DNA from: Lophium mytilinum | Lineage: Eukaryota | NCBI GenBank assembly: GCA_010093605.1 | Contig: MU004191.1 | Coordinates: forward strand, 1,889,162 to 1,909,161 | Length of the DNA: 20,000 bases | Reading direction: 5' to 3' | Shown: positions 1 through 20,000 of the stretch, in pieces | How the letters are laid out: the number at the start of each line of letters is the position of its first letter | Position numbering within the stretch: the first letter of the stretch is position 1 | The notes under the pieces: generated by a model | What the model was told of the DNA's origin: nothing | Seen by the model: the letters and a program-made list of their open reading frames with translations, nothing else | Database searches by the model: none | Translations under genes and position numbers: made by a program

Positions 1-741
1 ACTTTAGCTCCCCCCTCTACTATAAGATTTAACTAGTACTTCTACTTTATTTCTACTCTATTCTAGCCCCTCTAGAGCTACTAGATAGAATAGACCTAAG
101 ATTATAGGGGCTAGAGGGTTAGAGTTAGGTAGGGAGAAGCAAGTTTAATATAGAGAAAATTAACCTTTAAGAATTACGTGTAGCATAACCTTGCACCGCC
201 GTATTTAACTACTATAACGTAAAATAGAGTATACATGTAAAGAATAATACTTAGAATATAATATAATAGCGTTCTATTAACTTTAATTTAATTTACAAGC
301 CGTAGTAGTAGCTTAAGGTAGGTATAGAGAGGCTGCAGGGTGCATAGATATAGAATGGAAATTACTTAAAGGGTTTAGCATAAGAACAGCCTTGCGCTTA
401 AGAATTAGTACAACTACTACTATATATAACTACTATAATGTAGTATAGAAGAAATATATAAAGGATTATATATAATACATAATATAATAGTAATCTATTA
501 ACTTAGAATTAATATGTAGGCTATAGTAGTAGTAGTAGTTACATGTAGAGGTAAGATTCTAAATAATAGAAGTTACTTAAAGAGTTTAGTATAATGCCAG
601 CCTTACACTTAATAAAGACCTTAACTAGCGCTGCATAGAACTACTATAATATAAGGTTAAAGATATTTATAAGGAAAATTACTTATTATATAATATAATA
701 GTATTCTAGCAATTTAGAAATATTTTATAGGCTATAGTTAT

Positions 742-1013
742 NNNNNNNNNNNNNNNNNNNNNNNNNNNNNNNNNNNNNNNNNNNNNNNNNNNNNNNNNNN
801 NNNNNNNNNNNNNNNNNNNNNNNNNNNNNNNNNNNNNNNNNNNNNNNNNNNNNNNNNNNNNNNNNNNNNNNNNNNNNNNNNNNNNNNNNNNNNNNNNNNN
901 NNNNNNNNNNNNNNNNNNNNNNNNNNNNNNNNNNNNNNNNNNNNNNNNNNNNNNNNNNNNNNNNNNNNNNNNNNNNNNNNNNNNNNNNNNNNNNNNNNNN
1001 NNNNNNNNNNNNN
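742..1013. other. Assembly gap (272 N)
   Basis: Run of N. Confidence 1.
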
Positions 1014-1084
1014 GCATTAAATAAAATATATAAAGTAAAGGGTAGAATATAGTTTATATAACGTTTATAGATAAAGTAATTAAT

Positions 1085-1119
1085 AGGGCTACCGTAGAAA
1101 GCCTTCCTGCTAGGGCTCT
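1085..1119. repeat. 35-bp palindrome copy 1 (possibly inside a 5' intron, ~1076-1146)
   Basis: agggctaccgtagaaag-c-cttcctgctagggctct. Confidence 0.85.
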
Positions 1120-1257
1120 TCCCTAGCAACCTTAACCGAGTAGCAGTATCTATAAGGGGTGTTAAAACGGGTTAGGCAGAGTAAGCCCTATAATAAGAAT
1201 ATTAACAAATCCTTATTTTTAACTAATTATACTCCCTAACTACTTTCTACTTTTTAG

Positions 1258-3180
1258 CTCTATATTCTAAACTATTATCCCCCTTACTACTATACCTAGT
1301 AGTTAGTATAGAACGCCCTTAAAAGTACTAGAATAAAGAAGAGTAAAAAGCAGCTAAATTATATTTAATAGTAGATTTAAACCAACGCAAGAGAGATAAA
1401 AAGAAGAGGGCTATAGACTAAATAGCTGCAGTAGAAGAGGCTAGTAAGCCTACTTCTACTTCTATTCTAGATCCGTTTCTAATTATCTTTAAAAACCCTA
1501 GAGGTCTTTCTAGTATAAACATTAGGGCCCCTTATCCTACCCACCCTGCGCCTACGCCCTTTTAACAACTAATTATACCTTAGAAGCCTTTAGAGAAAAC
1601 TATTATATAACTTATAATTAGTATATCTTTTATAATCTTCTAGTATTTATAGTTAGGTTCTAATAAACTTAAGTAGAACCCGTCTTAATAAAAGAATTAT
1701 TACCTTCTACCTCTACTTAATCTACGCAATATACTCCTCCGCAGCGGTCTACTTATAGTAGTACCCGTTCTACTATTTCTTCTCTATCTATCTAACCTAT
1801 ATAACCTACGTAATATACTCCTCTATAGTAGTCTACCTATAGTAGTATCTATTCTACCGCTCCTCCTCTATCTACTAAACCCACCTAATATTCTACTCTA
1901 GGGCGGGCTACTTATAGCAGTACTTATTCTCTCGCTTCTCTAACTTCTTAATCTACTTAACTAATATAACTTTCTTATATCTAGTAGTCTACTAGTAGTA
2001 GTACACACTCTAGTAAGTTAAAAGCGGCCTAATATATACCTAAAATTTAAAGTAATATAGAATTAATAGAAGCTATAGAGTAAAATTAGAGTAATAGTAG
2101 TAAGTATACTATTATATAGACTATTAAGGGAGCAGCAGTTAAAGAAAAAGAAGAAGCGGCTAAAGAAAGCGAAGTAAATAAAGAAGTAGCCTAAGTAGAT
2201 AAAGAAGTAGAAGAGGCAGTATTAGAGTTGCTATTACCTATATCTTCCGCGTTATCTTCTTATATACCTGCGTTACTACCACCTCTAAATACTAGAGAGG
2301 TATTACCCTCTCTATTACTACCTTCTAGTGTAGGGACACCTTAGTAAGCCGCAAATAATAATAATAGAGCTCCGGGCTAAGTTCTACCCGCTATACGCTA
2401 TCTCTATAAAGTGTTTCTTAAACCTATAGCTATACTATATATATATACAGGCGTATATACTATTCTTACCCTCTAGAATACTCTATAGATAGCTATAATA
2501 CTACACGCAAGTTTACGCGCTTAATAAACTATAGCAGCTCCTACTCCTATATAACTAGAACTAATAATATAACGCTAAATACTAGCCCTTATTACTATAT
2601 TACTACTTTATATACTTATGTAAATAACTAATAAAGAGATTATAGTAGAATTATTCTTAGCGCAATAAAATAAGGCCGTAGAAGTGCTCTCTAGAATAGA
2701 CGCTACGGAATAAATAGATAAGAAGGAAATGCTAGCTAATATAAGTTAGTTTATACAACTAGCGTATAATAATAGTTAGGTTTAGATAGAGTAGTACGCT
2801 GCCTTATTATCTCTCCGCCTAACGCTAGTAACTAAGGTTATAGAAGAGGAATTTACCTAATTTAAGAATAAGGTAGAAGCAGGTGCAGATATAGATAAGG
2901 TATTAAATAATAGAGTTAAAGAGGGTAGAGAAGGTATATATACGCAAGGATAGTAAGATACTATAGATAAATTACCGGGTTTACTTAATAAAGTTACGCT
3001 AGAGAATTAAGGCAGTAGGGTAGATAATATAGCCTTAAATAGTAAAGGCAATAGTAAGATTATAGATAAAGTTATAGATAAGATAGACCCTAATAGGTAA
3101 GTATTATAAGCCCTATAGTTTATATAAAGCTAATATACGTAGGTATAATAATCTATTAGTAAATACTCTATATATAGTAA
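1258..3180 (+). pseudogene. RIP'd gene A: S/T/P/Q-rich low-complexity region followed by charged/helical region, unknown function; boundaries approximate
   Basis: Codon-phased repeats at 1721-2011, an E/K/A-rich stretch at ~2120-2230, and a canonical short intron at 3097-3142 (gtaagt...gctaat...tag). Truncated by the gap at 3181. Confidence 0.5.
1721..2011 (+). repeat. Degenerate coding tandem repeat, about 4 units with spacings of 84, 75 and 81 bp
   Basis: Units read caatatactcctccgcagcggtctacttatagtagtac / taatatactcctctatagtagtctacctatagtagtat / taatattctactctagggcgggctacttatagcagtac / taactttcttatatctagtagtctactagtagtagtac. All periods are multiples of 3 (peptide ~TQYTPPQRSTYSST). Confidence 0.8.
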
Positions 3181-3190
3181 NNNNNNNNNN
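3181..3190. other. Assembly gap (10 N)
   Basis: Run of N. Confidence 1.
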
Positions 3191-6100
3191 TTAGAAGTCT
3201 AGTATACTTACTATATATCTTAACTCTTTCTATTTAGATAATATAGTAGCTAATATTATAATATAGCAAGTAACTATATAATAGTTCCTTAAAGCAGATC
3301 CCTTAGCTAAGTTACTAGCTTTCTTCTAGCTTAGAATCTTTCCTTCTAATAAGAGCCTATTACAGCTAATACAGCCTTCTATTTAATAAGCCAACTAGAG
3401 CTATTATAGAGAGAGGATAATCCTAACAACTTTAATAATATCCTATAGAAATTAATATTAAGCAGAGAAACTAGTAATATAGAAACTCTAAGGCTTAGTT
3501 TTATAAGGTCTAAAGCTAGCTTTATAGCGAATAAAGAGATTAAAATCCGGCAAGTATATAATATTAATAGCATTATTATTAGCATCTCTACTTTAGCGGC
3601 CTATAATTTATACTTCTTACTATTTCTATAACTATCCTTTCTCTAAAGTATTACTTAAAACTAATATATTATAATACGCGGCTATAAGCTCTATATAATA
3701 AAGCAGCTTTACATAGAGTATAGATATAAGTATTAATTTAAAACTTATATATTTTTCCCCTAGATATTAACACTAAATAAGTAGAAGGGTAGTACTTTGC
3801 ATCTACTAGATATAATATAAGCAGCTTAGCTTAATAATATTATCTTACCTATAGTAAAGTATACTCTAATATCTAATAAGTAGTAGTATATACTATACAG
3901 TTTTAATATTATATAGAGTAAAGCAAGCGTTAAGAAAGAAAAATATATAATATTATCTAGAGACTCTTATATTAATACTAAGTATATAATTCTATAGTAT
4001 TAACTCTAAGAATTCTAGAACTAAGTTCTTTATAATGTAGAAAACTTTATAGAAATAGATACTATACCTAAAGATTTATTTAAAGAAGTATTCCTAGTAG
4101 TCTTAGGTTATAATCTAAAAATAGTATATAAGTCCTTAAGTATAATTTAAAGTAGAAATTAGCTACTACGTACTTTAACTACTACTTTTAATAAAAACCT
4201 AATTAATATACTAGATAAGGGGATATAGGTTAACTATAGATATAAAGATATCCTAACTACTAATTAGCTAGATACCGGGGTTACCCTTCTACATAAAACT
4301 AGCTATAACAACTACTAGGCCACTTACTTCTATAATAGTGGAAAAGAAAAGATTTATATAATATTATACCCCTACTATCTTACCTAGGGCGCGTTATCTC
4401 TAATAGTAGAGCTCTAAGCAGGCAACTATAGCCGTATTAGTAGTATAGCATATAATAAAATCTATAATAGTAATAAGATTATACTTAAGTTACCTATTAA
4501 GAATATTACGCCCTTTTATAATACTTAACTAGAAGCTCTTGCGTTCTTAACTAAAATAATTAAGTAGTAGTTTAAAGCGGCAGGTAGCTCTAAAGGATTA
4601 TTAAAAAGAAAATAGCTTTAGAATAGTCTTACTACTATTCTCTAACGCCACTATACTATACTCTAGAGAGATAGATACTTATTCTATAGGGTTTAAACTA
4701 AGTTCTAAGTACTTCTTACTATACTTAAGCAACTTAAAGAAAGCGTAAGTCCTAAATTTACTATAAAGGATAGGCTAGATAATAGTAGTAAGCCTTATTA
4801 CCCCTACTAGGTTCTTTCTATAAAAGAAGTTAATACCTTTACTATTGTAAACCTTAATCGCTAGGTATTCCTTTTCCAGGTACTATCTCTTTAGATTACC
4901 CCCGGGCGTAATACTAGGCATGTAGCAATACTAGATAAATAGCTAGTAAATAGTTATTTAGCATTTCTTTATATCCGCCTTACATAAATTACTACTAGAT
5001 ATAGTAATTCTACTTAATTATCTATACTATAGAAAAAAGAGTAGATAAATTAAAAAGACCCCTAGAATCCTGTAATCTTATATAGCCTTAGGTTATTAGA
5101 CTTCCTTAAAAAGTATAGCATAGCTTAGCTAAAGTTAGAGTACTTAGATTAGATAATAACGCCCCTATAACTTAGTCCTTAAGGCGTTAATTAACTGCAA
5201 GCCGGCCTTAGAAATTAATTCTAAGCTATATTTACTAAAGCTTAGATCTAGGTATCTCTTACTAGGGAGAATATAGAGATGCGGTATCTATAGTATAGCA
5301 TTACAGCATAGTACACGCTAGCTATTTAACGTAAAAATAGAACTAAAGTATAAAAAGATTAGTAATTAGTACCGCTATAGATAGGTAAGGCAGCTGCGCT
5401 TATTATTAAGGCATACTATACTAATATATATAAGCTTCTAAGTAGATAATACATAGAAGAAGATAGAAATACTAAGATATAATAGAAGAGTAAAGAACTA
5501 CGCAACTAATTTCTTAAGAGTATTTTAAATAGATCTATAGTTGCGCTTTATCCTAATATACTTATAAAGCTATATAGAAAGTTAGAACTTATAGTAAGCT
5601 ACGCCTATATGCGGAATGTAGCTAGAAATAGTAATATAAATTATCTAAGGCACTTAACTAGACGCTAAATTAATTAAGTCTAGCCGCTATTTAATATTAC
5701 GGATCTAGCTGCAGAAACTTAAAAATAAAATAATAGTCCCTTCCGCATAAAATTGCAAAGATTAAATGCAATAATTAGAAACAAAGCGTTACTAAAAACG
5801 GTAGAATAATTTCTTAATAATTTATAAGTAAAAGCCGCCTTATTACTCTAGATTCTTCTAAGATACAATAATAATAAAATTTTAACTACGCGTTAAGCTA
5901 AATAAAACAACTCTAAAGATATATAAGATAATATTAGGGGAAGAGATATAATTATAAATATATAGTAGATCTATATGCAACTATTAAATAGCTACTACTA
6001 TAAGGTAGCCTAACTAAGCTAATATATTAAAGAATAGGCTTAAGGGGGGGTAGTTAACCTTAGCATAGACGTAGTTGCAAAGGAAGTATAGAATATAACC

Positions 6101-6480
6101 TAGGGAAGCCCAGGAAAGTTAAAGACAATAATAATAGAGGATAATATTATAGGCCCTAGAGGTTAAGTTAATCTAAAATATATCTAGCTTAGGTTTAAGC
6201 ACTATATACTAAATAGCCCAAGGGCTTATTTAGGCAGAATTCTAATAATTAAAGAATTCTAGAATTATTTAGCAATATAAAAGAAGCAAGAGAGGAATAT
6301 AAGTAGTTAGTTATTAGATAAAGAGTATAAGTATAAAGAGAGTTTAGGTAACTATAGCTTAGAAATAGAGGACTTAGAGGACTTAGGGTAAGAGGTCTAG
6401 AAGAATAAGGCTTAAGTAGAAGAGTTTTAAGAAGTATATAGATTTAAGCGTTAATAGGTAGACTAGTAGGGGCGGCGTTA
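3191..6480 (+). pseudogene. RIP'd gene B: large (~1,000 aa) fungal hypothetical protein with acidic C-terminal tail; ends approximate
   Basis: One frame (position mod 3 = 2) gives protein-like de-RIP motifs: YDIDS (3557-3571), WVDYGYED...VTLLHK (from 4226), GGMAYNKIY...PF...LEALAF (~4440-4490), YGVRTEFRV (from 4685) and GLGLLDFLEKYGMAWLK...LDW (from 5084). These resemble a repeat-associated fungal hypothetical family recalled from memory, with no named domain. Confidence 0.7.
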
Positions 6481-6533
6481 TAAAGAAGAATTATTAATAA
6501 GAGAGGTAGTAAAGTATTTAGTATAAGATATAA

Positions 6534-6568
6534 AGGGCGTTAGTAGAAAGGCTTCTAGCTAGGCTCTT
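6534..6568. repeat. 35-bp palindrome copy 2 (intergenic)
   Basis: agggcgttagtagaaag-g-cttctagctaggctctt. Confidence 0.85.
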
Positions 6569-6659
6569 ATATAGTACGCAAATACTTATCTAGTAGGTGT
6601 ATAGTAGTAATATATATAAGAAGAGAGGTAATAATAGGCGTACTTAATATAAGTAGTAA

Positions 6660-6694
6660 AGGGCCCTAGTAGAAAGGCTTTCTAGCAAGACCCT
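6660..6694. repeat. 35-bp palindrome copy 3 (intergenic)
   Basis: agggccctagtagaaag-g-ctttctagcaagaccct. Confidence 0.92.
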
Positions 6695-7294
6695 TATACT
6701 ATAGGTAAATAGTTATACAACAACGCGCAATATTCTATTAACCTATCTTAGCGCAGTACTGTATTACTAGAACTAGGCGATATATAGCGTAGTATTATAG
6801 ATTAACCGTAAACATTTATATATTAGCGAAATTAAGTAAAACGCTAATATATTTATACCTGTAATATTTTAACCTTATATAATATATAGCCATTATATTA
6901 ACCTTAAGAGTTAACTTAAGTAGTTTACTATTAAAGGCTTAGCGTCTTAGCAGCCGGCGGCTATTAGCCCGGCCGCCCATAAACTTATCCACCGCCTAGC
7001 AGCTTTAACTTTCTTACTTTTATACTAATCTCTCCTTCTATACTACCGCACCCCCATTACTTCTACTTATCTAGCTACCTGCGGAATAGTTGCGCGCTAG
7101 TTTCTTATTTACTAGATAATAGTTAGCAGCTTTCTAGCTATATTAGAGCCGCAATTAGCTAGTTTTAGGCGTTCTTTTAGCTAGCGGTTAAGCCTTTTAG
7201 TAAGTTTACTATCTAGCAGGTAAAATTAAGTTACGTTATAGCTAATTCTGCTAATAGGTTTATTCTATTGCAATTTCTCTAAGAGTAGAGTAAG

Positions 7295-7359
7295 GTAAGC
7301 GTATTATAAGAATTATTATAGAAAGGCTTCCTGCTAGAGCCCTTTACTAGTCTTAGTAG
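7295..7359 (+). other. Predicted intron containing palindrome copy 4 (7309-7343)
   Basis: gtaagc donor at 7295; agaattattatagaaag-g-cttcctgctagagccct; acceptor tag at 7356 or 7359. Confidence 0.6.
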
Positions 7360-7430
7360 ATTAGTCTACCTTAATTTTAAAGATGCGGCGGCAGGAAATA
7401 TTAAGAAAATAATAATACTAAAAATACCCA

Positions 7431-7526
7431 GTATAGTGCATAGGGTCTTAGTAGAAAGCCTTTCTACTAGGGCCCTTTACCTGCCTTCTTTCTTCTATTA
7501 TTTAAGATAAGCTAATATATTAATAG
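7431..7526 (+). other. Predicted intron containing palindrome copy 5 (7442-7476)
   Basis: gt donor at 7431; agggtcttagtagaaag-c-ctttctactagggccct; pyrimidine tract; branch gctaat at 7511; tag at 7524-7526. Confidence 0.65.
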
Positions 7527-8455
7527 GCTAGCTATAAATACCTTAAGCAACGGGGACCCTAGTAAGGTAGTAGTAAAGGTTGCATCCCTATATATATTAC
7601 CTATAACTAACCTAGTAGATAGCTATAAGAAATAATCTACTTCTTCTAAAGTACTAGAAGATTTAAATTCTACCTCTCTACTAGTTACTAAATTAGGGGT
7701 TAATGCCTATGTTAATTTAAAGCGCAATTAGCCGGCCACTGCAATAAATCTAGAGACGCTTGCATTAGTAAATAGCAAAGTAGTTTATCTAGATAGCGAT
7801 AACTATAGTAATAACTCTAATATCCCTAAGAACTCTAATAAAGAGTAAGAAAAGCTTTAAGCGCTAGTTACTAGCAGTAGGAAAGATAAAAAGTTAGAGA
7901 AGTTATAGGCCTTAGTAAATACGCTATATGCTAGTAGAATAAAGTTAGCTAAGCTTTATAGTTAAATAAAAGTAGAACTTAAAGTAATTCTAGCTAAGCC
8001 TAATTTCTAAGTAATTTAGAATAAGTATAAGGATAGGTATTTAGACCTAAAGCGCGCCGTATACAGTTAGAATTAAGGGGCTAGTTTTACTACTATTCTA
8101 AACGCTTTTAAGACTAGCGAGTTGCATAATCTATAGTAATATACTACTCCTTAGCCTAAGATAGATAACTATAAACCCGTAGATTAGGTAGCTTAATTTA
8201 TTAGTTAATGCTTTAATTACTACCAGAAGCGGTTTAGTGGGTTTTTGCACAACCGCGCTAATATTACTAATAATAAAGCGCTTAGAATCTTCTTTAAATT
8301 AAAGAAAAATATAGAATTTAAGAGTAGCCCGTCTTAAGCTAGTAGGACCGCCTATACTAAGAACTAAATTAAGATATAGAATGTTCTTTAAAAAATAAAG
8401 CTTAGTCTAGTACCGGCACCTAAGACCCCGGCCAAAACTATTACTTATAGTAGTA

Positions 8456-8490
8456 AGAATATTAATAGGAAGCCTTTCTATTAAGGCCCT
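8456..8490. repeat. 35-bp palindrome copy 6 (reads in-frame in the helicase ORF)
   Basis: agaatattaataggaag-c-ctttctattaaggccct; frame continuous across it (~IDGKPFHQGP). Confidence 0.8.
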
Positions 8491-9140
8491 TCTAGGCCTC
8501 CCTGTTAGCAGTCGCCCTCTTATTTTACTAAGAAGAAACTCGCGGCTATTAACATAGAGGTTAACGTAGACAACCCTATCTAGGAGTTATCTAAAGAGGA
8601 AATTACTATAAACCTAGTTAATAAGAAGAAAGGTAACGTTAATATTACTAGCGCTAAGTATATTACCGGCACTATAAAATAGAAGCTTAAGTTAGTAATT
8701 ATGCATGCTAAGCGCACTAGAGTAATAATTAACTAGAACTCGTTAAAGTTTTAATATAACGCATATTGGGTAATTAGATAGATAGTAGGAGATTTTATAT
8801 ATACTATTAAATAGCACCTAAATATGCGCGCTGTAGATTTAAATAAGAATAAGTACGCTAATCTAGATAGTATTAAATATGCCTAAGATATAGAGGCTAA
8901 TATAAGGGCTACCGCTATTAATATAAAGAATATTATCCTCTTTACTATACTAACCGCAGTAGATCTTACAACGTAGAGTACACTCCGCCTTCTAATAACT
9001 AATAAAGCCTATTAGCTAGATAACCTTAAAGAAGTAATAAAGGCCCTACGCATTTATAACTATTGGAAACCCCGCCTTATTATAATAAATAGTAATATTT
9101 ACTTAAGGTAGTAGTAGATTACCGGGGCTTACTATATATA

Positions 9141-9175
9141 CTATATTATATAGAAAGGCTTTCTTAGTAGGGCTT
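9141..9175. repeat. Degenerate palindrome copy 7 (exonic, overlapping the start of SNF2 motif I)
   Basis: tagaaag-g-ctttcttagtagggct, encoding ~QKGFLGGA. Confidence 0.6.
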
Positions 9176-9253
9176 TAATTACAGATAAGGTTAGTATTAG
9201 AAAGATATTTTTAATAGCTACCCTTATTAGATATATAAGCAATTTCTCTTTAA

Positions 9254-9288
9254 AGGGTATTAATAGAAAGCCTTTCTACTACCCCCCT
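9254..9288. repeat. 35-bp palindrome copy 8 (exonic)
   Basis: agggtattaatagaaag-c-ctttctactacccccct; in-frame ~GIDGKPFCHPP. Confidence 0.8.
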
Positions 9289-10052
9289 AATAGTTTCTCT
9301 TAGCATCTACTAATTTAATTATAGCTTATTACTAAGCGCTAGCGCAAAGTTATAGATAAGAAAGACCCCGGGCTAGTAAAGCCCTTTTTTTTTCTTATGC
9401 CTCCCGTTTTAGTATACTAAATAGTAAATAAACTTATAAAGTTTAGTTCTAAACTTAAGCTCTATATCTATTTATTAAAGGGCTAAGTTACTTTCTATAG
9501 CGCTATATTTCTACATAATACCTTAACTAGAAACTATTCCTTATTTAATACTAAAAATAAGGTAAATGCTAAGAGCATTGTAATCGCCAGCTATTAGGTA
9601 ATAGCTAGTCGGCACGGTCCCTAGCCCGCATTAAAGTAGTATAGCAATAATAATCTTACTAAGCTAAAGAACTAGGTTAAATATCGCCTAAGCTCTACCT
9701 AGCCCGGTTTCTTAAGTAGCTATTTTAACGTCTAATTTATAGATAAGTGCTAGCTTATTAAAAGTAACTAAGTAAACCTCCACCTAACCGCGTTATAGCT
9801 TTACTTAGACTTTACTATACTCTATAGTAGGACCCTACTATATATAGGTATTACTAATATGCCTACTTATATATCTTTTATAGAACTAAGAGATAAGTAT
9901 TTATAATTCTGCACATACCGCTTAAAACCTAGTAAAGCTAAGTTTATTCCAGGTACTAATAATCCGTTTAAGCTTCCTAATAACTATTTAGGTGTAATTT
10001 TCTAGTATACACGCAAGGCTTTTAAAAATTTTATTCTACCTTTATTTAACCT

Positions 10053-10146
10053 GTAAGTTATTATATAAAGGGCCCTAGTAAAAAGGCTTCTAGCTAGGGC
10101 CCTTATCTCTTCTCTTATTTACTTTAATTTTTTAATATTTCTCTAG
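10053..10146 (+). other. Intron containing palindrome copy 9 (10069-10103)
   Basis: gtaagt donor; agggccctagtaaaaag-g-cttctagctagggccct; polypyrimidine tract and ctctag acceptor; removal restores the helicase frame. Confidence 0.85.
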
Positions 10147-11542
10147 GATTATATAGGGGCTTTATTTACGCTTAATTTTTAGTAAGTATATAATTACTCG
10201 CTTATACCCTTCTATATACCTAAATAATTCTACTAATCCTGCCACCTAAATTAGAGGATTACTTCCGCGGTTAGTTACGCGAGTAATTAAGCTATAGCCT
10301 ATAAAACTAGGCTATATTATCTATACTAATAAATTACTAAGCTACCTTAAGTTATTAATAGTTTCTACTAAGAACTGTGTAGGCTAGCGCACCTATATAT
10401 TTAATATATGCTCTATATATGCTCTTAACCTTATAAGTACTGCGCTATTTTTAGTCTACTCTAAGCGCGCTATAATAGCATATCCGTAAGAGAAGGTCTT
10501 AGATTTAAAGGGTAATAAGATTAAGAACGGCCCAAAAATCATCCCTCTTAAGAATAATAGCGGTTACTAGTTAAAGGAAATAGACGTTTTGCAAGGCATA
10601 ATAAAGTAAATTACCCGGAATAAGAACGTCTAAACTAACCCTAATTAGAAAGACTTTAAAGCAAAGTCCGCACCCTTTTATTATATTATCGCTCTTTTTA
10701 TCCGTAATGCCCCTAAAGTAGCTACACTACTATACTATTTAGCTAATAACGTTATTAAGCGTATAGAGAAGGTTATTATTTAGACTAACTACCTAAATAA
10801 GTAAATAATTCTTGCTAAGATTATTAACTATTATAAAATAGATGCTTATATACTAGCCTTTAATCTCTCTACTACTAACCGGGATAACTTTATCTTAGTG
10901 TTTAACAACCCCGACTCTAAAGTAAAGATTCTTATTACTAGTTACTAGGCTAATAGAGCTAGGCTTAATCTATAGTCTACTTATTATAATATATATCTTT
11001 TTAACCCTGCAGGCTCTATTTAGATTAAGAAGCAGGTAATAGCGCGTTTCTATAGAATTAGCTAGAAGTTTACTATTATAGTAACCGCGTTCTTTATCTA
11101 GGACACATTTAATGCCTTTACTCTCTCGCGCTAGGTGTAGATAGCGCTTTCCGGTCTTACTACTGCGTTAAACACTAACTAGATTAAGGTAGAGGGGACC
11201 TCTAAGGAAAAGCTAACCCTAGATAGCTAGTATGCGTAGATAACCTATAATAATAAGAGTATTGCACCCCGCCTTATTATAGGCAAAATAGATATTTTAA
11301 ATATGCCGGTAGAATTATATATTAAGCGCTTTAACTCCCTATAAGATATTCTTATATTTCTAATAACCCTTATGCAAGGTAATATAACTTTTTAGTCTAG
11401 TAGGTTTAGTAATAAGTTCTAAGAAAAATAAGCGTATAAATTTACTAAATTAGAATTAGAAGAAGAGTAGAAGAAGGGTGTAAATAGAGCGCCTAAGAAA
11501 CCGCGTATTAATAAGCTAGGTTTAAGGCTTAAGTATTATCCT

Positions 11543-11637
11543 GTAAGTAGTAAGTTCGCCCTTATAGGTTCTAGCGGGAAGGCTTTCTACTAGGGCCCTA
11601 CTTACCTTTTTATACTTTGCTAATCCGTGTTTTATAG
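11543..11637 (+). other. Predicted intron containing palindrome copy 10 (11565-11599)
   Basis: gtaagt at 11543 (alternative 11550); taggttctagcgggaag-g-ctttctactagggccct; branch gctaat; tag at 11635-11637. Confidence 0.75.
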
Positions 11638-11820
11638 TAAAAGCTACCCTAAAGCTAAAGCTAAAGACACTAGAGTAATAAAATAGTAAAGCTTTAAAGT
11701 AGAAGCGCAAAGCTAGTACTATACTAGCGGCTGCTATTAAGAAGTATAAGCCTAACCCTAAGTCTACTATTATAGTTAAAGACTTAGATTCTACTAAATC
11801 TAATATGCCTACCCCTATAA

Positions 11821-11855
11821 AGAGCACTACTAGAAAGGCTTATAGCCCTTTTATC
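11821..11855. repeat. Degenerate palindrome copy 11 (in predicted exon)
   Basis: agagcactactagaaag-g-cttatagccct; left arm fair, right arm shortened. Confidence 0.5.
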
Positions 11856-12006
11856 TATTAATATAGGCCGGAGCGTAACCCTTTATATTAAGTCCCCGCT
11901 GTTTTTAGTAATATAGACAGCAATAACTCTTTTAGTAGGCTAAATAGTAATAACTCTAAAGGTAAAAAGTATAAGAATAATACTTTATTCCTTGCAAAGT
12001 ATATAG

Positions 12007-12101
12007 GTAAGAATTTATTCTAGGGCCTTTTTAGAAAGCCTTTCTACTAGGGCCCTTTAGCATCGCCTATTATACTGCTTAAGTGCTAACTATTATAATA
12101 G
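12007..12101 (+). other. Predicted intron containing palindrome copy 12 (12022-12056)
   Basis: gtaaga donor; agggcctttttagaaag-c-ctttctactagggccct; branch gctaac at 12085; tag acceptor at 12101. Confidence 0.8.
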
Positions 12102-12914
12102 CTTCTACTTCCGCCCATTAACCTACTTTAACTCTACCTTCTAGCCCTCTTAGTACCTTTAATAGACGCCTTATTAGGACCTCTTCTATAGACTCTATTC
12201 TATTACCTAATATATAGAAGAAGAGGTAGCGTAGAGTTTCTACTATCTCCTTATAGAATTCTATAGATAATCTAGTTTTTTATTTACTACTAAAAGCTAA
12301 CATTAATATAGATAATAACTAGACTAAGAGTAATAAGTAGAATAAGAAGAATATTAAAACCCCCGACGTTAATATAGAGAACGTCCCGTCTAAGACTAAT
12401 AAGTAAAATGGGGGGTATCTTAATAATTACCCGGATTTTACTACTACGCTATCTAAAGTTGCCTTTAAGCGTAATAGCAACTACAGTAGTAACTTAAATA
12501 ACCCGCCGGAATTTATAGAAGAGGCCTTGTAGCTAACCTTAAAAACTATATCCTCTAGTAATACTAATAAGGGTTAGAAGCGCTAAGGCGCAAAAAAGAA
12601 GCCTACTATAAAGAAGGATAAAGTAGCTAAGAAAGACCCTATATCTAAATTCCTTATATATTGTCCGTACAAGTATATAATAAAGAAAGAGATTACTAAG
12701 TAGCGCCCTTAGCGCGAAAGAAAGGCTACTAAGAAGAAAGCTACTGCGTAGAAGTCTATAAACTCTACTAGACTAAAAATAGACCTACGCAGGCGGAAGA
12801 ATAATCCTAATATTAGCTAACCGCCCGCGGTATTAGGTATAGATACTAACCCTAATAGTAAAGAGAATAGTAGTAAATTAGAGGGGACTAGTATAGTGCT
12901 GGAGAAGTCTAATA

Positions 12915-13027
12915 GTAAGGTATAACTAGTAGGGTTTTTATAGAAAGGCTTTCTATAGGGGCCCTTACCCTACTTTTTAAATTTAGTTTAGTATCTCTTA
13001 ATATCTTTTTTTTTTTCTTTCTAACAG
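12915..13027 (+). other. Possible intron or 3' region containing palindrome copy 13 (12931-12965)
   Basis: gtaagg at 12915; agggtttttatagaaag-g-ctttctataggggccct; T-tract followed by ctaacag ending at 13027. Confidence 0.6.
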
Positions 13028-14889: not shown

Positions 14890-15367
14890 TATAGACTAAC
14901 CCTATACAACTAAACCGCTTACCGCGGAGGATACTACTAACCCTACCTACATTTATGCCTAGAGAGAAGCACTTCTTGCAACTATCTAGAATTAAAATAG
15001 AGGTTCCCTTTTTAGTAATAGCCTAGGCATGCCTACTAATACTACTCTTAATATATAGCCTACTATAACTAAGTCTTAAACTCTCTATAACTATGCTAAC
15101 CCTCTATTCTAAGCTACTAGAGATAGCGCCCTACCTTCTAAGTCTAATATTAATATTAAGCCTAAACTAGCTAATAAAGTTAATATAAAGATTAAGCCTA
15201 GTATTAAGATTAAGCCCGGCCTTATAAGCAGCCTGGATACTATAACTTTTTTAAGGATAATTTTAAGGATAAGAAGCTTCTACGCTTATAGATTAATATA
15301 GAAGAGAAGAAGGTAAGGGCTATATAAATAAGGTTTAAGGCTATAGCTAGAGAGCGGAAGCGGTAGG
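14890..15367 (+). pseudogene. RIP'd low-complexity ORF fragment with (V/I)KIEP-like repeats and an acidic/coiled-coil segment
   Basis: aagattaagcctagtattaagattaagcccggc (KIEPGIKIEPG after de-RIP), then ~FEDDFEDEELLRLRIDAEEKKARAM in a shifted frame. Confidence 0.4.
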
Positions 15368-15562
15368 GCCTAATCTACTTCTAAATTTAAACCTTAAATA
15401 GAAGTAGTAGCGCTTTAACCTATTTCTATCTCTACGCGCTCATTAGTAAACACCTAACTCTTTATTTAGCGCTGCTAGGCCCTTACTATTCCCTAACCTA
15501 TCTTCTCCTTTAATAGTAACGCGTCCCTACTTTTCTAGAACTATACTCTAGCCCTCTACGCT
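15368..15562 (+). pseudogene. Truncated paralogous fragment of the dsRBD gene (first half of dsRBD1); second copy at 17653-17847
   Basis: Aligns to 16488-16650 but carries an extra in-frame 36 nt after gcctaatctact. Confidence 0.85.
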
Positions 15563-15801
15563 ATCTATATGGAAATCGTCTAATAGGCTTTACTCTTTTA
15601 CTTTACCTTACTTTTATTTCCTTCTTTAATAGCTTTATCTCTACTCTTCTACTATTAGTCTTATCTTTTTCTACTATAGCGGAGCCTCTAGACCTAACCC
15701 CTAGTAATAGTACTAGTTTACCCTTTACTACTATAGTAAAACCTAAAGATTTATCTTCTATTACTACTACTACCGCGTTGCTAACTTGCAAGCTCTAAAA
15801 T

Positions 15802-15894
15802 TATAGATATTGCAGGAAGAAAGCTACTCTAAGGTATAGTTACTATGCTAGCATTATCTACTACAATATAGATTATTAAAAGGCTAACTAGAAA
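15802..15894 (+). pseudogene. RIP'd MYND-type zinc finger fragment; second copy at 18087-18179
   Basis: De-RIP reading CGYCRKKATLRCxxCASIVYCNADCQKADWK. Copy 1 retains tgc at Cys2 and copy 2 retains tgc at Cys4. The final HxxxC is not seen. Confidence 0.75.
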
Positions 15895-16289
15895 TTATCT
15901 AATACACCGCCTTCTTACATAAAGGTTATTACACCATAATAAGACTTCTATACTTTAGCTTAAATTTACTAATAGATAGTAAAGAGCGTAAAGTTTAGTA
16001 GATTATCTAAGGGGTAGAAATTAAAATAGGCTCTAGCTCTATTATATAACTATAAGCTATAATATACTTTACCTCTTATAAACTTAGCCCGCTATATATA
16101 AATATAGAGTCTCTCCTGCCTAAGCGCTAAAGAATAACTTCTAGTAGAGTAGCTGCAGCTACCCTAGCTTATATAGATTAAACTAGCACTCTACCTTAGC
16201 CTTCTTAGGCTAGCCTTTAACCTTATATATATACTAGCATAGGTAGTAATAATTATTCTTATTCTTCCTTTATACTAAGCTTAATTACT

Positions 16290-17458
16290 ACGCCGCTTTC
16301 TAGCTTTAAGAAGAAAAGAAAGATAGAGGTTGTAGCTCCTCTTAGTAGTTAGAACTCTACCCTACTATTAATAGATTAGATATATAGAGGCTCTATTCTA
16401 GGTACCCTAAGCATGCTATAAAACCTTCTTAGTATTAATAAGTTTAAGAAGTAGTATAAAGCCGCCGTTACCGCCGCTAGAGCCTAAGCCTAATCTACTC
16501 TCTAACCTATTCCTATCTCTATATGCTTATTAGTAAATACCTAGCTCTTTATCTAGCGCTGCTAGGCCCTTACTATCCCCTAACCTATCTTCTTATTTAA
16601 TAGCAACACCTTTCTACTCTTCTAGAACTATACTCTAACCCTCTATACTGCCGGCTTTCCCTACTCTCTTACTACTACTAGCCCCTTTACCTTTAAGAAA
16701 GAAGCTAAAGAAGCCGCCTCTACTCTTAGCCTTACCCTCCTCTTCTCTCTTAAAGCCTTAGGTATAGTCTCTACCCCTAGTAAAACTAAAAAATGTACTC
16801 TAACTCTAACTTTTACTACTACTACCCCTAAGAAACCCTAGAAAAACTTTACTAGTATTCTTATAGAATTCTACTAAGCCTCTAAAATTTCTATTCTAAC
16901 CTTTACTAAGTTTAAAACCGGCACCTACTTCTCTACTAAGCTATCGCTAGCCTTATACCGCCCGGAGGACGCCCTCTTTAGTAGCCGCGCTATACTCTAC
17001 CTATTAAAGAAAGCGGCTTATATAGCTATAGTAAGAGAGGTAGTACTCTAGCTATATATAGGGATAGCTACCCGCTATATATAAGCCCGTGTTTAGAAAG
17101 AAGTAGTAGAAGATAGTAGAGGGTTCTAAAAACGCTGCAGTGTAGCTGCCGGGTAGTATAGTAGCGCAGGTGCTAGCACTAGCAAGCAAGCTAGGGCTAC
17201 TATAGCTGGAGTATTAGTAGGCGGCGCTAAGTACGCTAGTGCCGGGGCTATCTATAGTAAGTAGTTTATTCCCGGGGAGTAGAGTAGGTAGAGAGAATAG
17301 AGTAGTAGCAACGGCAAGGTATATAGTTAGAAAGAAGGCGGTAAGGAAAAAGTATGCGCAGTTAATAGGAATAGAGTTAGAAGAAGTATTAGAGAGGAGG
17401 AAGGGGGTGTTAGAAAAGGTATTAGAGAAGGGGAAAAGAGAGGTAGAGATAAGGGAGG
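16290..17458 (+). pseudogene. RIP'd gene for a protein with three double-stranded RNA-binding domains (copy 1); start approximate
   Basis: dsRBD1: TRSSVNTQLFIQRCQALAIPQPVFSF...GPFASKKEAKEAASALGL (~16520-16735). dsRBD2: ENFTGILMEFCQ...PTF...FGGR...SKKAA..A.AREAVLWL (~16840-17055). dsRBD3 after a +1 frame change: AQVLALASKLGL.QPEY...ATARHVVGKKAAREECAQL (~17160-17400). Confidence 0.85.
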
Positions 17459-17468
17459 NNNNNNNNNN
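17459..17468. other. Assembly gap (10 N) exactly at the duplication junction
   Basis: Run of N. Confidence 1.
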
Positions 17469-19743
17469 TATAAAGATTAAGCCTAGTATTAAGATTAAGC
17501 CCGGCCTTATAAGTAGCCTAGATACTATAAGTTTTTTAAGAATAATTCTAAGAATAAGAAGCTTCTGCGCTTGCGGATTAATATAGAAGAGAAGAAGGCA
17601 AGAGCTATATAAATAAGGTTTAAGGCTATAGCTAGAGAGTAGAAGTAGTAGGGCCTAATCTACTTTTAAATTTAAACCTTAGATAGGAGTAGTAGCGCTC
17701 TAATCTATCCCTATCTCTACGCGCTTATTAGCAAATACCTAACTCTTTATCTAGCGCTACTAGGCCCTCGCTATCTCCTAACCTATTTTCTTCTTTAATA
17801 GCAACGCGTTTCTACTCTTCTAGAACTATACTCTAGCTCTCTACGCCGCCTATGCAGAAATTATCTAATAGGCTTTACTCTTTTACTTTACCTTACTCTT
17901 ATTTTCTTCTTTAATAGCTTTATCTCTACTCTTCTACTATTAGTCTTATCTTCTTCTACTATAGTAGAGCCTCTAGACTTAACTTCTAGTAATAGTACTA
18001 GTTTACCCTTTACTACTATAGTAAAATCTAAAGATTTATCTTCTATTACTACTACTACTGCGTTACTAACTTATAAGCCCTAAAATTATAGATATTATAG
18101 AAAGAAAGCTACTCTAAGATATAGTTACTGCGCCAGCATTATCTACTATAATGCGGATTATTAAAAGGCTAACTAGAAATTATTTAATACGCCGCCTTCT
18201 TACATAAAGGTTATTGCACTATAATAAGACTTCTATACTTTAGCTTAAATTTACTAATAGATAGCGAAGAGTGTAAAGTTTAGCAGATTATCTAAGGGGT
18301 AGAAATTAAAACGGGCTCTAGCTCTATTATGTAACTATAAGCTATAATATACTTTACCTCTTATAAACTTAGCCCGCTACGCATAAATATAGAGTTTCTT
18401 CTATCTAAGCACTAAAGAATAACTTCTAGTAGAGTAGCTGCAGCTACCCTAGCTTATATAGATTAAACTAGCACCCTACCTTAGCCTTTTTAGGCTAGCC
18501 TTTAACCTTATATATATACTAGCGTAGGCAGTAATAATTATTCTTATTCTTTCTTTATACTAAGCTTAATTACTATACTACTTTCTAGCTTTAAGAAGAA
18601 AAGAAAGATAAAGGTTGCAGCTCCTCTTAGCAGTTAGAACTCTACCCCGCTATTAATAGATTAGACACGTAGAGGCTCTATTCTAGGTGCCCTAAGCGTG
18701 CTATAAAACCTTCTTAGTATTAATAAGTTTAAGAAGTAGTATAAAGCTACTATTACCGCCGCTAGAGCCTAAGCCTAATCTACTCTCTAACCTATTTCTA
18801 TCTCTATACACTTATTAGTAAATACCTAGCTCTTTATCTAGCGCTGCTAGGCCCTTACTATCCTCTAACCTATCTTCTTATTTAATGGCAATACCTCCCT
18901 ACCCTTTTAAAACTGCACTCTAACTCTCTACGCCGCTAGCTTTCTCTACTTTCTTACTACTACTAGCCCCTTTACCTCTAAGAAAGAAGCTAAAGAAGCC
19001 GCCTCTACTTTTAGCCTTACCCTTCTCTCCTCTCTTAAAGCCTTAGGTATAGTCTCCACCCCTAGTAAAACTAAAAAATATACTCTAACCCTAACTTCTA
19101 CTACTACTACCTCTAAGAAACCCTAGAAAAACTTTACTAGTATTCTTATAGAATTCTACTAAGCCTCTAAAATTTCTATTCTAACCTTTACTAAGTTTAA
19201 AGCTAGCACCTACTTCTCTACTAAGCTATTACTAGCCTTACACCGCCTAGAGGACGCCCTCTTTAGCGGCCGCGCTATACTCTACCTATTAAAGAAAGCG
19301 GCTTATATAGCTATAGTAAGGAAGATAGTACTCTAGCTATATATAGAGATAGCTACCTACTATATATAAGCCCGCGTCTATAAAGAAGTAGTAGAAAATA
19401 GTAGAGAGTTCTAAGAATACTATAGTATAGCTACTAGGCAGTATAGCAGCGCAGGTGCTAGCGCTAGCAAGCAAGCTAGGGCTACTGCAGCTAGAGTATT
19501 AGTAGGCGGCGCTAAGTGCGCTAGCGCCGGGGCTATCTATAGTAAGTAGTTTATTCCCGGGGAGTAGAGTAGGTAGAGAGAATAGGGTAGTAGTAGCAGT
19601 AAGATATATAGTTAGAAAGAAGGCGGTAAGAAAGAAGTATGCGCAGTTAATAGTAATAGAGTTAAAAGAAGTATTAGAGAGAAGAAAGGGGGTGTTAGAA
19701 AAGGTATTAGAGAAAGAAAAAAGGGAGGTAGAAATAAGAGAGG
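17469..19743 (+). repeat. Copy 2 of 2,275-bp direct duplication
   Basis: Colinear with 15184-17458. Confidence 0.97.
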
Positions 19744-19768
19744 GAAATAAGAACTATTATTCTTATTA
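18575..19768 (+). pseudogene. RIP'd triple-dsRBD gene (copy 2); ends approximate
   Basis: Same motifs as copy 1, e.g. tctaagaaagaagctaaagaagccgcc (SKKEAKEAA) at ~18977, with an independent set of RIP mutations. Confidence 0.85.
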
Positions 19769-19886
19769 GGAGTATAGAGAGATATATAATAGAAACTTAT
19801 TTATACTTACTTAATTTAGGTTATAGTAGGGGAAGTATATTAAAAGTATAGTAAGTAGAAAGTATAATTACTTCCGTAGTAATATA

Positions 19887-19921
19887 AGAGTTACTATAGA
19901 AAGGCTTTCTATAAAGGCTCT
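19887..19921. repeat. 35-bp palindrome copy 14
   Basis: agagttactatagaaag-g-ctttctataaaggctct. Confidence 0.85.
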
Positions 19922-19979
19922 ATAAAAAATATTAGTATAATATATATATATAAAAAAGATATATAAATTTATAATAAAA

Positions 19980-20000
19980 AGGATCCCTATAGAAAGCCTT
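19980..20000. repeat. Palindrome copy 15 (cut by window end)
   Basis: aggatccctatagaaag-c-ctt. Confidence 0.75.

What the first reader, a model, noticed from the sequence alone, without database searches (positions are those of the whole stretch)
7295..13027. All six predicted introns of the helicase locus carry one palindrome just downstream of the 5' splice site
Seen: the predicted introns 7295-7359, 7431-7526, 10053-10146, 11543-11637, 12007-12101 and 12915-13027 each contain a copy starting 11-22 nt after the GT. Four of them are 94-96 nt long. The short intron in gene A (3097-3142) has none. Inference: the introns may be free space for the binding site, the hairpin may regulate splicing, or these may be related introner-like insertions. 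Introner-like elements with stable secondary structure are known in Dothideomycetes. Caveat: apart from 10053-10146, these introns were predicted partly by looking near the motif.
Basis: partly seen in the sequence, partly recalled or inferred. Interest (0 to 1): 0.7.

Follow-up and report, generated by a model that had tools for sequence, protein, structure and literature searches.

The report
Hairpin-carrying introns in dead helicase gene
A fungal helicase gene that was wrecked by repeat-induced point mutation is interrupted many times by short introns that all share one 41-base hairpin-forming palindrome just behind their start, which looks like a small family of copied ("introner-like") introns rather than a new kind of element.

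Summary
All six stated segments carry a ~41-nt palindrome, and its core is far commoner than chance: 7 exact hits against 0.01 expected.

It is incomplete, though. The window has 15 loci. Two further strong copies lie in the gene (8454, 9251), two partial copies lie in exons (9150, 11818), and five lie outside the gene.

The whole window is RIP-mutated. The gene is a dead SNF2-family helicase.

Evidence that the segments are introns:
- Homology and frame show that 10053-10146 is absent from relatives.
- Frame changes support about 11550-11637 (not 11543) and 12007-12101.
- The other three stated introns have no independent support.

The strongest new fact is the donor spacing. A GTAAG donor lies 20-34 nt upstream of 6 of 15 palindrome centres on the sense strand, against 0.42 expected. 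Five of these are at 31-33 nt. Beyond donor and palindrome the introns are not convincingly alike.

Best reading (about 0.45): a family of copied, hairpin-bearing introns, introner-like or same-gene duplicates. The main rival (about 0.3) is a palindromic mini-element that landed in older introns.

No RNA and no second genome could be examined.

The parts
7295..7359 (+). Candidate intron (65 nt, GTAAGC...TAG) holding palindrome copy 7307-7347 with a decayed left arm. It lies in the unresolved 5' region.
   Evidence: nhmmer E 2e-10. GTAAG lies 31 nt upstream of centre 7326. No frame or homology support. The fold is no better than shuffles (z +0.47).
7431..7526 (+). Candidate intron (96 nt, GTATAG...GCTAAT...TAG) holding the best copy, 7440-7480.
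   Evidence: nhmmer E 1.3e-13. 16-bp hairpin, z -1.92. The length does not link the ATG at 7383 (frame 3) to the frame-1 exon. An acceptor at 7506 would (read).
8453..8511 (+). The donor overlaps the decayed left arm.
   Evidence: nhmmer E 7.7e-10. GTAAG lies 20 nt upstream of centre 8473. The length fits a frame 2 to frame 1 change, but the upstream frame is ambiguous.
9150..9177 (.). Partial copy (exact 13-nt core plus a right-arm-like stretch) inside coding sequence, between the SNF2 Q motif and motif I.
   Evidence: nhmmer E 4.9e-4. Exact core at 9152-9164. P0060 aligns without gaps across 9094-9215 in frame 1.
9251..9291 (.). Strong copy inside a 26-codon surplus between motif I and the next conserved block. 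Probably a decayed intron; its boundaries are not resolved.
   Evidence: nhmmer E 3.5e-10. The window has 59 codons from the motif I lysine (9202) to 9379, against 33 residues in P0030 and P0060, the 2 of 9 relatives checked that contain motif I.
10053..10146 (+). Best supported intron (94 nt, GTAAGT...TAG) holding copy 10066-10107.
   Evidence: P0008 residues 22-194 align to 9511-10038 in frame 1 and residues 203-530 to 10157-11113 in frame 2. The 118 nt between, minus 94, equals the 8 unaligned residues. 12-bp hairpin, z -2.53.
11550..11637 (+). Intron (88 nt, GTAAGT...GCTAAT...TAG) holding copy 11564-11602.
   Evidence: Stop density changes from frame 2 to frame 3 here, which needs a length of 1 mod 3. 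GTAAG lies 32 nt upstream of centre 11582.
11818..11849 (.). Weak palindrome-like stretch inside the frame-3 exon.
   Evidence: nhmmer E 2.2e-4 to 3.7e-4. Frame 3 has 1-2 stops per 180 nt here. Only 4 Watson-Crick pairs of 18.
12007..12101 (+). Intron (95 nt, GTAAGA...GCTAAC...TAG) holding copy 12021-12059.
   Evidence: The length fits frame 3 to frame 2. Downstream, frame 2 is tied with frame 3 on stop counts and is preferred for its lysine- and serine-rich tail, which resembles the P0008 C-terminus. GTAAG lies 32 nt upstream of the centre.
12915..13027 (+). Candidate last intron or 3' segment (113 nt, GTAAGG...TCTAACAG) holding copy 12930-12969.
   Evidence: nhmmer E 9.1e-11. GTAAG lies 33 nt upstream of centre 12948. 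16-bp hairpin. No frame or homology evidence downstream.
9094..11515 (+). Conserved core of the RIP-inactivated SNF2-family helicase gene: frame 1 to 10052, frame 2 from 10147.
   Evidence: phmmer found 114 relatives, the best at 1.1e-34. In the 9 hits scanned, 7 have SNF2-rel_dom and 7 have Helicase_C. tblastn maps are. Stop codons occur in every frame.
6496..6745 (+). Two tandem units of about 122 nt upstream of the gene, each with a palindrome (6531-6571, 6657-6698).
   Evidence: 82% column identity along the units. nhmmer E 3.1e-9 and 6.2e-12.
1082..1122 (.). Palindrome copy far upstream, next to the 272-N gap.
   Evidence: nhmmer E 7.8e-11. No GTAAG within 120 nt upstream.
19885..20000 (.). 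Two copies at the window end: 19885-19923, and 19978-20000 (cut by the window end).
   Evidence: nhmmer E 1.2e-8 and 3.2e-3.
3097..3142 (+). Motif-free 46-nt intron-like segment of the neighbouring gene A, used as a comparison.
   Evidence: GTAAGT...GCTAAT...TAG. No nhmmer hit.
8237..8285 (+). Candidate motif-free 49-nt intron (GTGGGT...GCTAAT...TAG). If real, it is a counter-example to the claim that all introns carry the motif.
   Evidence: One of two candidates in 7900-8300 with length 1 mod 3, and the one with a usual fungal donor and a normal length. It would pair with 8453-8511 to give frame 1, then 2, then 1. Unproven.

Best explanation
The 41-nt palindrome (consensus TAAAGGGCCCTAGTAGAAAG-S-CTTTCTACTAGGGCCCTTTA) is the conserved core of a small family of related spliceosomal introns in an SNF2-family helicase gene.

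The shared unit is a donor (GTAAG), about 12 nt of spacer, then the hairpin. An AT-rich tail follows, with a CTAAY-like branch site and a YAG acceptor. This unit was copied to several positions of the gene, as in introner-like or same-gene intron duplication.

In the pre-mRNA the palindrome would fold into a 12-20 bp hairpin. That would loop out about 41 nt, so an 88-96 nt intron would present an effective length of about 47-55 nt, close to that of ordinary fungal introns.

Later the whole locus was hit by repeat-induced point mutation (RIP). RIP killed the gene and blurred the AT-rich parts. It spared the palindrome, whose GGGCCC and core have no CpA or TpG.

Shown:
- The repeat family exists.
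- The locus is RIP-mutated.
- The gene is an SNF2-family helicase.
- One intron is supported by homology and two by frame.
- The donor and the palindrome are coupled at a near-fixed spacing.

Inferred:
- Copying as the origin of the family.
- Folding in RNA.
- The order of events.
For: - Repeat family: 15 loci by nhmmer; 7 exact cores against 0.01 expected.
- Coupling to the donor on the sense strand only: 38 GTAAG occur in 20 kb. 6 of 15 centres have one 20-34 nt upstream (0.42 expected). 5 of 15 have one at 26-34 nt (0.25 expected), at 31, 33, 32, 32 and 33 nt. On the opposite strand the counts are 2 (0.45 expected) and 0.
- Intron status: 10053-10146 is absent from P0008 and shifts frame 1 to frame 2. 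Frame changes fall at about 11550-11637 and 12007-12101. Branch-like CTAAY occurs in 7431, 11550, 12007 and 12915 (read).
- No palindrome-free interruption exists in the 2.1 kb that aligns to relatives.
- Length is about twice that of the motif-free 46-nt intron.
- Hairpins of 12-16 bp form in 4 of 7 introns, with z -0.9 to -2.5.
- Long length and stable structure are the reported marks of introner-like elements (PMC3609843, passages).
- Fungal introners are reported to lack target-site duplications (PMC9860276, passages). None is visible here.
Against: - Similarity is confined to the donor plus about 45 nt. For the 3' tails, 8 of 300 mononucleotide shuffles reach the observed score; for the 5' spacers, 33 of 300 do.
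- Mean pairwise identity of the 12 strong copies is only 65%. Differences from the consensus are 59 transitions against 56 transversions, so the copies are not simply RIP-diverged twins.
- 0 of the 5 copies outside the gene has a GTAAG at the canonical distance.
- An exact core lies in an exon.
- Three of the seven folded introns (7295, 8453, 11550) fold no better than shuffles. Two of them (65 and 59 nt) are too short for the loop-out arithmetic.
- Intron-like signals also arise by chance in this RIP-mutated DNA: 10182-10254 has GTAAGT, a branch site and TAG, yet it is exon by homology.
- There is no RNA evidence, and no other gene or genome was seen.
Confidence: 0.45

Rival explanations
1. 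The palindrome is a free-living, very short foldback repeat: a MITE-like or solo inverted-repeat mini-element. It inserts at the DNA level anywhere. Inside the gene only insertions into pre-existing introns of about 50 nt were tolerated. Within those, only a narrow zone behind the donor and ahead of the branch site was tolerated, which would mimic a fixed offset.
For: - 5 of 15 loci lie outside the helicase gene, and none of these has a GTAAG at the canonical distance.
- Both orientations of the central base occur: G in 9 loci, C in 6.
- Nothing outside the palindrome is convincingly shared.
- Intron length minus 41 nt gives 47-55 nt for four introns, the size of ordinary fungal introns. The window's motif-free intron is 46 nt, and regular introns of 50-55 bp are quoted in PMC4457414 (passage).
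- The palindrome ends in TA...TA, which is compatible with a TA target.
Against: - The spacing of five copies falls within 3 nt (31-33 nt). That is tighter than a merely permissive zone would predict.
- No target-site duplication can be told apart from the palindrome ends.
- No solo arms occur elsewhere: 8 of 8 arm matches lie in known loci.
- 41 nt is far shorter than known MITEs (recalled).
- 11 or 12 of the 15 loci cluster in 6.5 kb, while 4 kb of gene A and 6.8 kb downstream have none.
Confidence: 0.3
2. The palindrome is a functional cis-element kept in the non-coding parts of this locus. It could be a DNA site for a dimeric binding protein, or an RNA hairpin that tunes splicing. Introns would then be simply where it can be placed.
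For: - It is a dyad-symmetric site with two GGGCCC half-sites.
- Copies also lie upstream of the gene at 6531 and 6657, in a duplicated 122-nt unit.
- The offset from the donor is constant.
Against: - There is no matching RNA family: 0 Rfam hits at E up to 1.
- Pairing is not kept better in the sense RNA than in the antisense: 19 against 12 G-U pairs, and 38 against 45 mismatches.
- The copies are only 65% alike.
- Nothing ties them to a protein.
- The gene is dead, so present-day selection cannot be read.
Confidence: 0.1
3. The segments are not introns. A repeated palindrome was scattered into an already dead, repeat-rich locus. The GT...AG look is a by-product of RIP-biased sequence, in which GTA, TAG and CTAA are abundant.
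For: - GTA occurs 510 times on the plus strand.
- A convincing false intron, 10182-10254, lies in an exon.
- Three of the six stated introns have no independent support.
Against: - GTAAG, not just GTA, is enriched about 14-fold at the fixed offset, and only on the sense strand.
- Removing exactly 10053-10146 restores both the frame and collinearity with P0008.
- The copies carry many C-to-T and G-to-A differences of their own: 17 G>A and 9 C>T against the consensus. They were therefore present while RIP acted.
Confidence: 0.08

Closest known systems
Introner-like elements (ILEs) of Dothideomycete fungi (van der Burgt et al. 2012, recalled; Collemare et al. 2013 PMC3609843 and 2015 PMC4457414, passages read)
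   Same: - They are spliceosomal introns with canonical donor, branch and acceptor.
- They are about twice the length of regular introns.
- They have a stable predicted secondary structure.
- They are related copies at several positions.
- No target-site duplication is visible.
- Several can occur in one gene.
   Different: [quoted passage not shown]
- Here only one gene could be seen.
- Likeness is limited to the donor plus a 41-nt palindrome (65% mean identity).
- Some copies lie outside any recognised gene.
- Sequence likeness to published ILE families could not be tested.
Same-gene intron duplications (SGD) in fungi (PMC3609843, passages read)
   Same: Related introns occur at different positions of one gene, and the exons between them are not repeats of each other.
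   Different: - SGDs are reported to have the length and folding energy of ordinary introns. These introns are long and carry a hairpin.
- Eight or so related introns in one gene is many.
Internally symmetrical sister (stw)introns of Hypoxylaceae (Fekete et al. 2021, PMC8469720; abstract and section 3.5 read)
   Same: - They are proliferated fungal introns of about 93 nt, built around dyad symmetry with a short central palindrome.
- They have no flanking duplications.
- The symmetry is thought to serve copying rather than splicing.
   Different: - Their inverted repeats are terminal (45-55 nt) and cover the whole intron, around TTTCTAGAAA.
- Here the palindrome is internal. It starts about 12 nt behind the donor and leaves a tail of roughly 10-60 nt (35-60 nt in the five longer introns) that is not symmetric.
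- The core is GAAAG-S-CTTTC.
- No nested donor was seen.
Transposon-type introners of algae and other protists (Gozashti et al. 2022, PMC9860276, passages read)
   Same: A short repeated element with inverted-repeat symmetry that coincides with introns.
   Different: - Those carry terminal inverted repeats and 3-9 bp target-site duplications at the intron ends. Neither is seen here.
- The paper singles out ascomycete introners as lacking both.

Membership tests
Introner-like elements (ILE) | Canonical spliceosomal signals on the coding strand | tested here: met
   GTAAG donor in 6 of the 8 strong in-gene copies. CTAAY-like branch sites and YAG acceptors are read. One intron is confirmed by homology. 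No RNA evidence.
Introner-like elements (ILE) | [quoted passage not shown] | not testable with these tools
   - No genome is held for this window.
- Metagenome scans found nothing.
- Only one gene was seen.
Introner-like elements (ILE) | Sequence likeness over the whole intron | tested here: not met
   For the tails, 8 of 300 shuffles reach the observed score; for the spacers, 33 of 300 do. Core identity is 65%. RIP may have erased more.
Introner-like elements (ILE) | Longer than regular introns and more stable predicted structure | tested here: inconclusive
   Lengths are 59-113 nt against one 46-nt motif-free intron. Four of seven have 12-16 bp hairpins, but only two reach z below -1.9.
Same-gene intron duplication (SGD) | Related introns at different sites of one gene without duplicated exons | tested here: met
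   There are eight strong copies in one gene. The exons align once each to relatives.
Hypoxylaceae symmetrical sister (stw)introns | Terminal inverted repeats of 45-55 nt spanning the intron ends | tested here: not met
   The palindrome centre lies 20-33 nt from the donor and 33-79 nt from the acceptor. The tails are not symmetric.
Transposon-type (MITE-like) introners | Target-site duplication flanking the insertion | tested here: not met
   No direct repeat flanks the palindrome or the intron ends in the centred alignment. A TA duplication could hide in the palindrome ends.
SNF2-family helicase (host gene) | SNF2 N-terminal ATPase lobe followed by a Helicase_C lobe | tested here: met
   - Pfam finds nothing in the mutated frames themselves.
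- 114 relatives were found.
- Of the 9 scanned, 7 have SNF2-rel_dom and 7 have Helicase_C.
- They align collinearly to 9355-11515, and motif I reads SIRKI at 9193-9207.

The most novel reading that the evidence does not exclude
The module 'donor, 12 nt, 41-nt perfect hairpin' is itself a mobile intron-making unit. It would be a palindromic mini-introner that moves at the DNA level, spread at least eight times within one gene, and also sits as bare copies outside genes.

That would be a dyad-symmetric, transposon-like introner in an ascomycete. Ascomycete introners are currently described as lacking inverted repeats and as RNA-propagated (PMC9860276, passages).
Probability: 0.2. Interest if true: 0.7.

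Novelty: new member of a known kind. Interest (0 to 1): 0.4.

Why it matters
How new spliceosomal introns arise is still open, and fungi are one of the few groups where copied introns have been caught.

This locus holds about eight related introns within 5.7 kb. Each has a hairpin at a fixed distance from the donor. That makes it a compact natural series for two questions:
- Is the hairpin what gets copied?
- Can a looped-out hairpin let a double-length intron be read as a short one?

The locus also gives a practical lesson. In RIP-mutated DNA, splice-like signals are cheap, and GC-rich repeats without CpA or TpG survive as the only legible landmarks.

As it stands the case rests on one dead gene. 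It is a modest addition rather than a surprise.

Tried and rejected
- **Whole genome.** None is held for this window.
- **Sequencing runs.** Two DNA holders from one study were listed, and no RNA holder was listed.
- **Collection scans.**
  - The palindrome, written with Y/R at RIP-prone places, gave 0 matches in metagenome contigs.
  - Relatives of P0039, P0001 and P0008 gave no confirmed locus in metagenome contigs.
  - P0008 gave no confirmed locus in genome contigs.
  - So no homologous DNA was available for comparing intron positions.
- **Pfam on the mutated frames.** 0 families. A second, larger Pfam call failed on a stop codon and was not repeated.
- **Gene A (3602-6301, frame 2).** No relatives found.
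- **Rfam and tRNA.** 0 Rfam hits at E up to 1 and 0 tRNA genes. The hairpins are not a known RNA, and the window is not mitochondrial.
- **My own idea of one 216-nt intron, 9109-9324, with two palindromes.** Rejected, because the Q motif to motif I stretch lies inside it.
- **Selection on the RNA hairpin, judged from sense against antisense pairing.** No clear difference.
- **Solo palindrome arms as transposon ends.** None outside known loci.
- **Earlier notes of this scan.** Nothing for this genome or this sequence. One search listed only cases from other genomes.
- **van der Burgt et al. 2012.** Not held, so it is cited from recall.

Full report
**Setting**

The whole 20-kb window carries the signature of repeat-induced point mutation (RIP).
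- TpA/ApT is 1.95 and (CpA+TpG)/(ApC+GpT) is 0.27. Every 1-kb bin is affected, and GC is about 31%.
- TGA is almost absent, and TAA and TAG litter all six frames.
- RIP is known from filamentous ascomycetes (established knowledge).
- There are three runs of N: 742-1013, 3181-3190 and 17459-17468.

**The repeat**

The motif is an odd-length palindrome of about 41 nt, TAAAGGGCCCTAGTAGAAAG-S-CTTTCTACTAGGGCCCTTTA.
- Its 13-nt core gives 7 exact hits against 0.01 expected.
- It gives 11 hits with up to 2 mismatches against 1.63 expected, and 0 of 200 shuffles reach 11.
- A profile built from 12 copies finds 15 loci:
  - twelve strong: 1082, 6531, 6657, 7307, 7440, 8454, 9251, 10066, 11564, 12021, 12930, 19885;
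  - three partial or weak: 9150, 11818, and 19978, which is cut by the window end.
- The central base is G in nine loci and C in six, so both orientations occur.
- The 12 strong copies are 65% identical on average (range 49-88%). They differ from the consensus by 59 transitions and 56 transversions in a gapless register. They are therefore not simply RIP-diverged twins.
- GGGCCC and the core contain no CpA or TpG. This probably explains why they remain legible in this DNA (inference).

**The gene**

- Pfam sees nothing in the mutated frames.
- A full phmmer search with 10148-11542, with stops read as X, finds 114 proteins. The best is P0001 at 1.1e-34.
- Of nine hits scanned, seven have SNF2-rel_dom and seven have Helicase_C.
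- tblastn of all 114 gives 91 pieces. Every one lies in frame +1 between 8887 and 10143, or in frame +2 between 10157 and 11515.
- P0060 aligns without gaps to 9094-9215 in frame 1. There the window reads YLR***ITGAYYIYYII*KGFLSRALITDKVSIRKIF against P0060's FKFWQ...GLGKT.
- The present SIRKI is what RIP-type transitions would make of a G-x-G-K-T motif (inference; motif names recalled).
- So the 'helicase locus' is a dead SNF2-family gene on the plus strand.

**Which palindromic segments are introns**

Best case: 10053-10146.
- P0008 residues 22-194 align to 9511-10038 in frame 1, and residues 203-530 align to 10157-11113 in frame 2.
- The 118 nt between them, minus 94, equals the eight unaligned residues.

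Frame evidence comes from stop density, which is a noisy measure.
- Frame 2 runs to about 11549 and frame 3 starts at about 11638.
- That change needs a length of 1 mod 3. A donor at 11550 (GTAAGT, 88 nt) or 11547 (91 nt) meets it.
- 12007-12101 (95 nt) fits frame 3 to frame 2. Downstream, stop counts alone leave frames 2 and 3 tied. Frame 2 is preferred for its lysine- and serine-rich reading, which resembles the P0008 tail.

Segments without independent support:
- 7295-7359, 7431-7526 and 12915-13027 have none.
- 7431-7526 (96 nt) does not carry the ATG at 7383 (frame 3) into the frame-1 exon.

- 8454-8494 lies in a possible 59-nt intron, 8453-8511 (GTAAGA...CAG). It would take frame 2 to frame 1, but the upstream frame is ambiguous.
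- 9251-9291 lies in a 26-codon surplus. The window has 59 codons from the motif I lysine to 9379. P0030 and P0060 have 33 residues there; they are the 2 of 9 relatives checked that contain the motif. I found no intact GT...AG pair of suitable length around it.

In the 2.1 kb that aligns to relatives there is no interruption without a palindrome. A motif-free 49-nt candidate, 8237-8285, exists in the unaligned part.

**Coupling to the donor**

- GTAAG occurs 38 times on the plus strand.
- 6 of 15 palindrome centres have one 20-34 nt upstream (0.42 expected).
- 5 of 15 have one 26-34 nt upstream (0.25 expected), at 31, 33, 32, 32 and 33 nt.
- On the minus strand the counts are 2 (0.45 expected) and 0.
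- All six are in the helicase gene.

As a control on how cheap splice signals are here, 10182-10254 has GTAAGT, a branch-like site and TAG, yet it is exon by homology.

**What else is shared**

- Outside the donor and the palindrome the seven introns are not convincingly alike. For the tails, 8 of 300 mononucleotide shuffles reach the observed score. For the spacers, 33 of 300 do.
- As RNA, four of the seven introns (7431, 10053, 12007, 12915) fold into 12-16 bp hairpins, with z -1.92, -2.53, -1.35 and -0.91. The other three fold no better than shuffles.
- The motif-free 46-nt intron of gene A has no such structure.
- Pairing is not clearly better kept in the sense RNA than in the antisense: 105 Watson-Crick pairs in both, 19 against 12 G-U pairs, and 38 against 45 mismatches.
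- Subtracting 41 nt from 88, 94, 95 and 96 gives 47-55 nt, the size of ordinary fungal introns (my arithmetic). Regular introns of 50-55 bp are quoted in PMC4457414.

**Copies that do not fit a purely intronic element**

- Five loci lie outside the gene, and none has a GTAAG at the canonical distance.
- 6531 and 6657 lie in a tandem duplication of about 122 nt. The two units are alike well beyond the palindrome (82% column identity).
- The exact core at 9152-9164, together with a right-arm-like stretch, lies in coding sequence just ahead of motif I. I cannot explain this. Part of the arm likeness could be RIP convergence, but the core has no RIP-prone sites.
- No solo arms occur elsewhere: 8 of 8 arm matches lie in known loci.
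- There is no Rfam match and no tRNA gene.

**Reading**

I favour a family of copied, hairpin-bearing introns at about 0.45.
- In favour: the near-constant donor-to-hairpin distance on the sense strand, the doubled length, the hairpin, and the lack of flanking duplications. These match what is described for introner-like elements and same-gene intron duplicates (PMC3609843 and PMC4457414, passages; PMC9860276, passages, for the lack of duplications in fungal introners).
- The main rival, at about 0.3, is a tiny foldback repeat that inserted into older introns and into non-coding DNA. It explains the bare outside copies and the length arithmetic equally well. It explains the 3-nt spread of spacing less well.
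- A functional binding site or splicing hairpin gets about 0.1. Scattered insertions into a dead locus get about 0.08. Both are less likely.

**Membership**

- Membership in the ILE family proper cannot be claimed. [quoted passage not shown]
- The Hypoxylaceae symmetrical introns (PMC8469720, abstract and section 3.5) resemble these in size and dyad symmetry. Their repeats are terminal, however, and their core differs.

**Limits**

- No genome, no reads, no RNA and no homologous DNA could be examined.
- The gene structure upstream of 9094 rests on stop density only.
- The supplementary files of the ILE papers were not consulted.

Noticed in passing
window 9150-9177: An exact copy of the 13-nt palindrome core, plus a right-arm-like stretch, lies inside the coding sequence between the SNF2 Q motif and motif I. 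The expected number of exact cores per window is 0.01. It could be chance, RIP convergence, or a clue to where the palindrome came from.
   Followed up: partly
window 6496-6745: A tandem duplication of a unit of about 122 nt (82% column identity). Each unit begins AAGAGAGGTA and carries one palindrome. Here the likeness runs far beyond the palindrome, unlike among the gene's introns.
   Followed up: partly
window 8237-8285: A patch that still contains TG and CA dinucleotides and looks like a motif-free 49-nt intron (GTGGGT...GCTAAT...TAG). With 8453-8511 it would give frame 1, then 2, then 1.
   Followed up: partly
window 15184-19750: Two tandem copies of a 2285-nt unit (300 nt at 91% identity; internal 153-nt repeats spaced 1087 and 1198 nt). 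A 10-N gap at 17459-17468 lies at the junction, so an assembly effect is possible.
   Followed up: no
window 2300-6400, plus strand, frame 2: A long coding-looking reading ('gene A') with a 46-nt motif-free intron at 3097-3142. A search with 3602-6301 found no relatives, so its identity is unknown.
   Followed up: partly
window 202-738 and 1713-1955: Short tandem arrays (units of 211-221 nt and of 84 nt) lie beside the 272-N gap at 742-1013.
   Followed up: no
window 7307-12969: In the in-gene copies the 3' arm keeps GGGCCC in 7 of 8 strong copies. The 5' arm keeps it intact only at 10066. The asymmetry has no clear cause, and the pairing counts do not show selection at the RNA level.
   Followed up: partly
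window 17376-17449 and 19661-19734: Purine-rich repeats of 33-41 nt (GAAG-rich) produce sharp swings of GC skew at the ends of the 2285-nt units.
   Followed up: no
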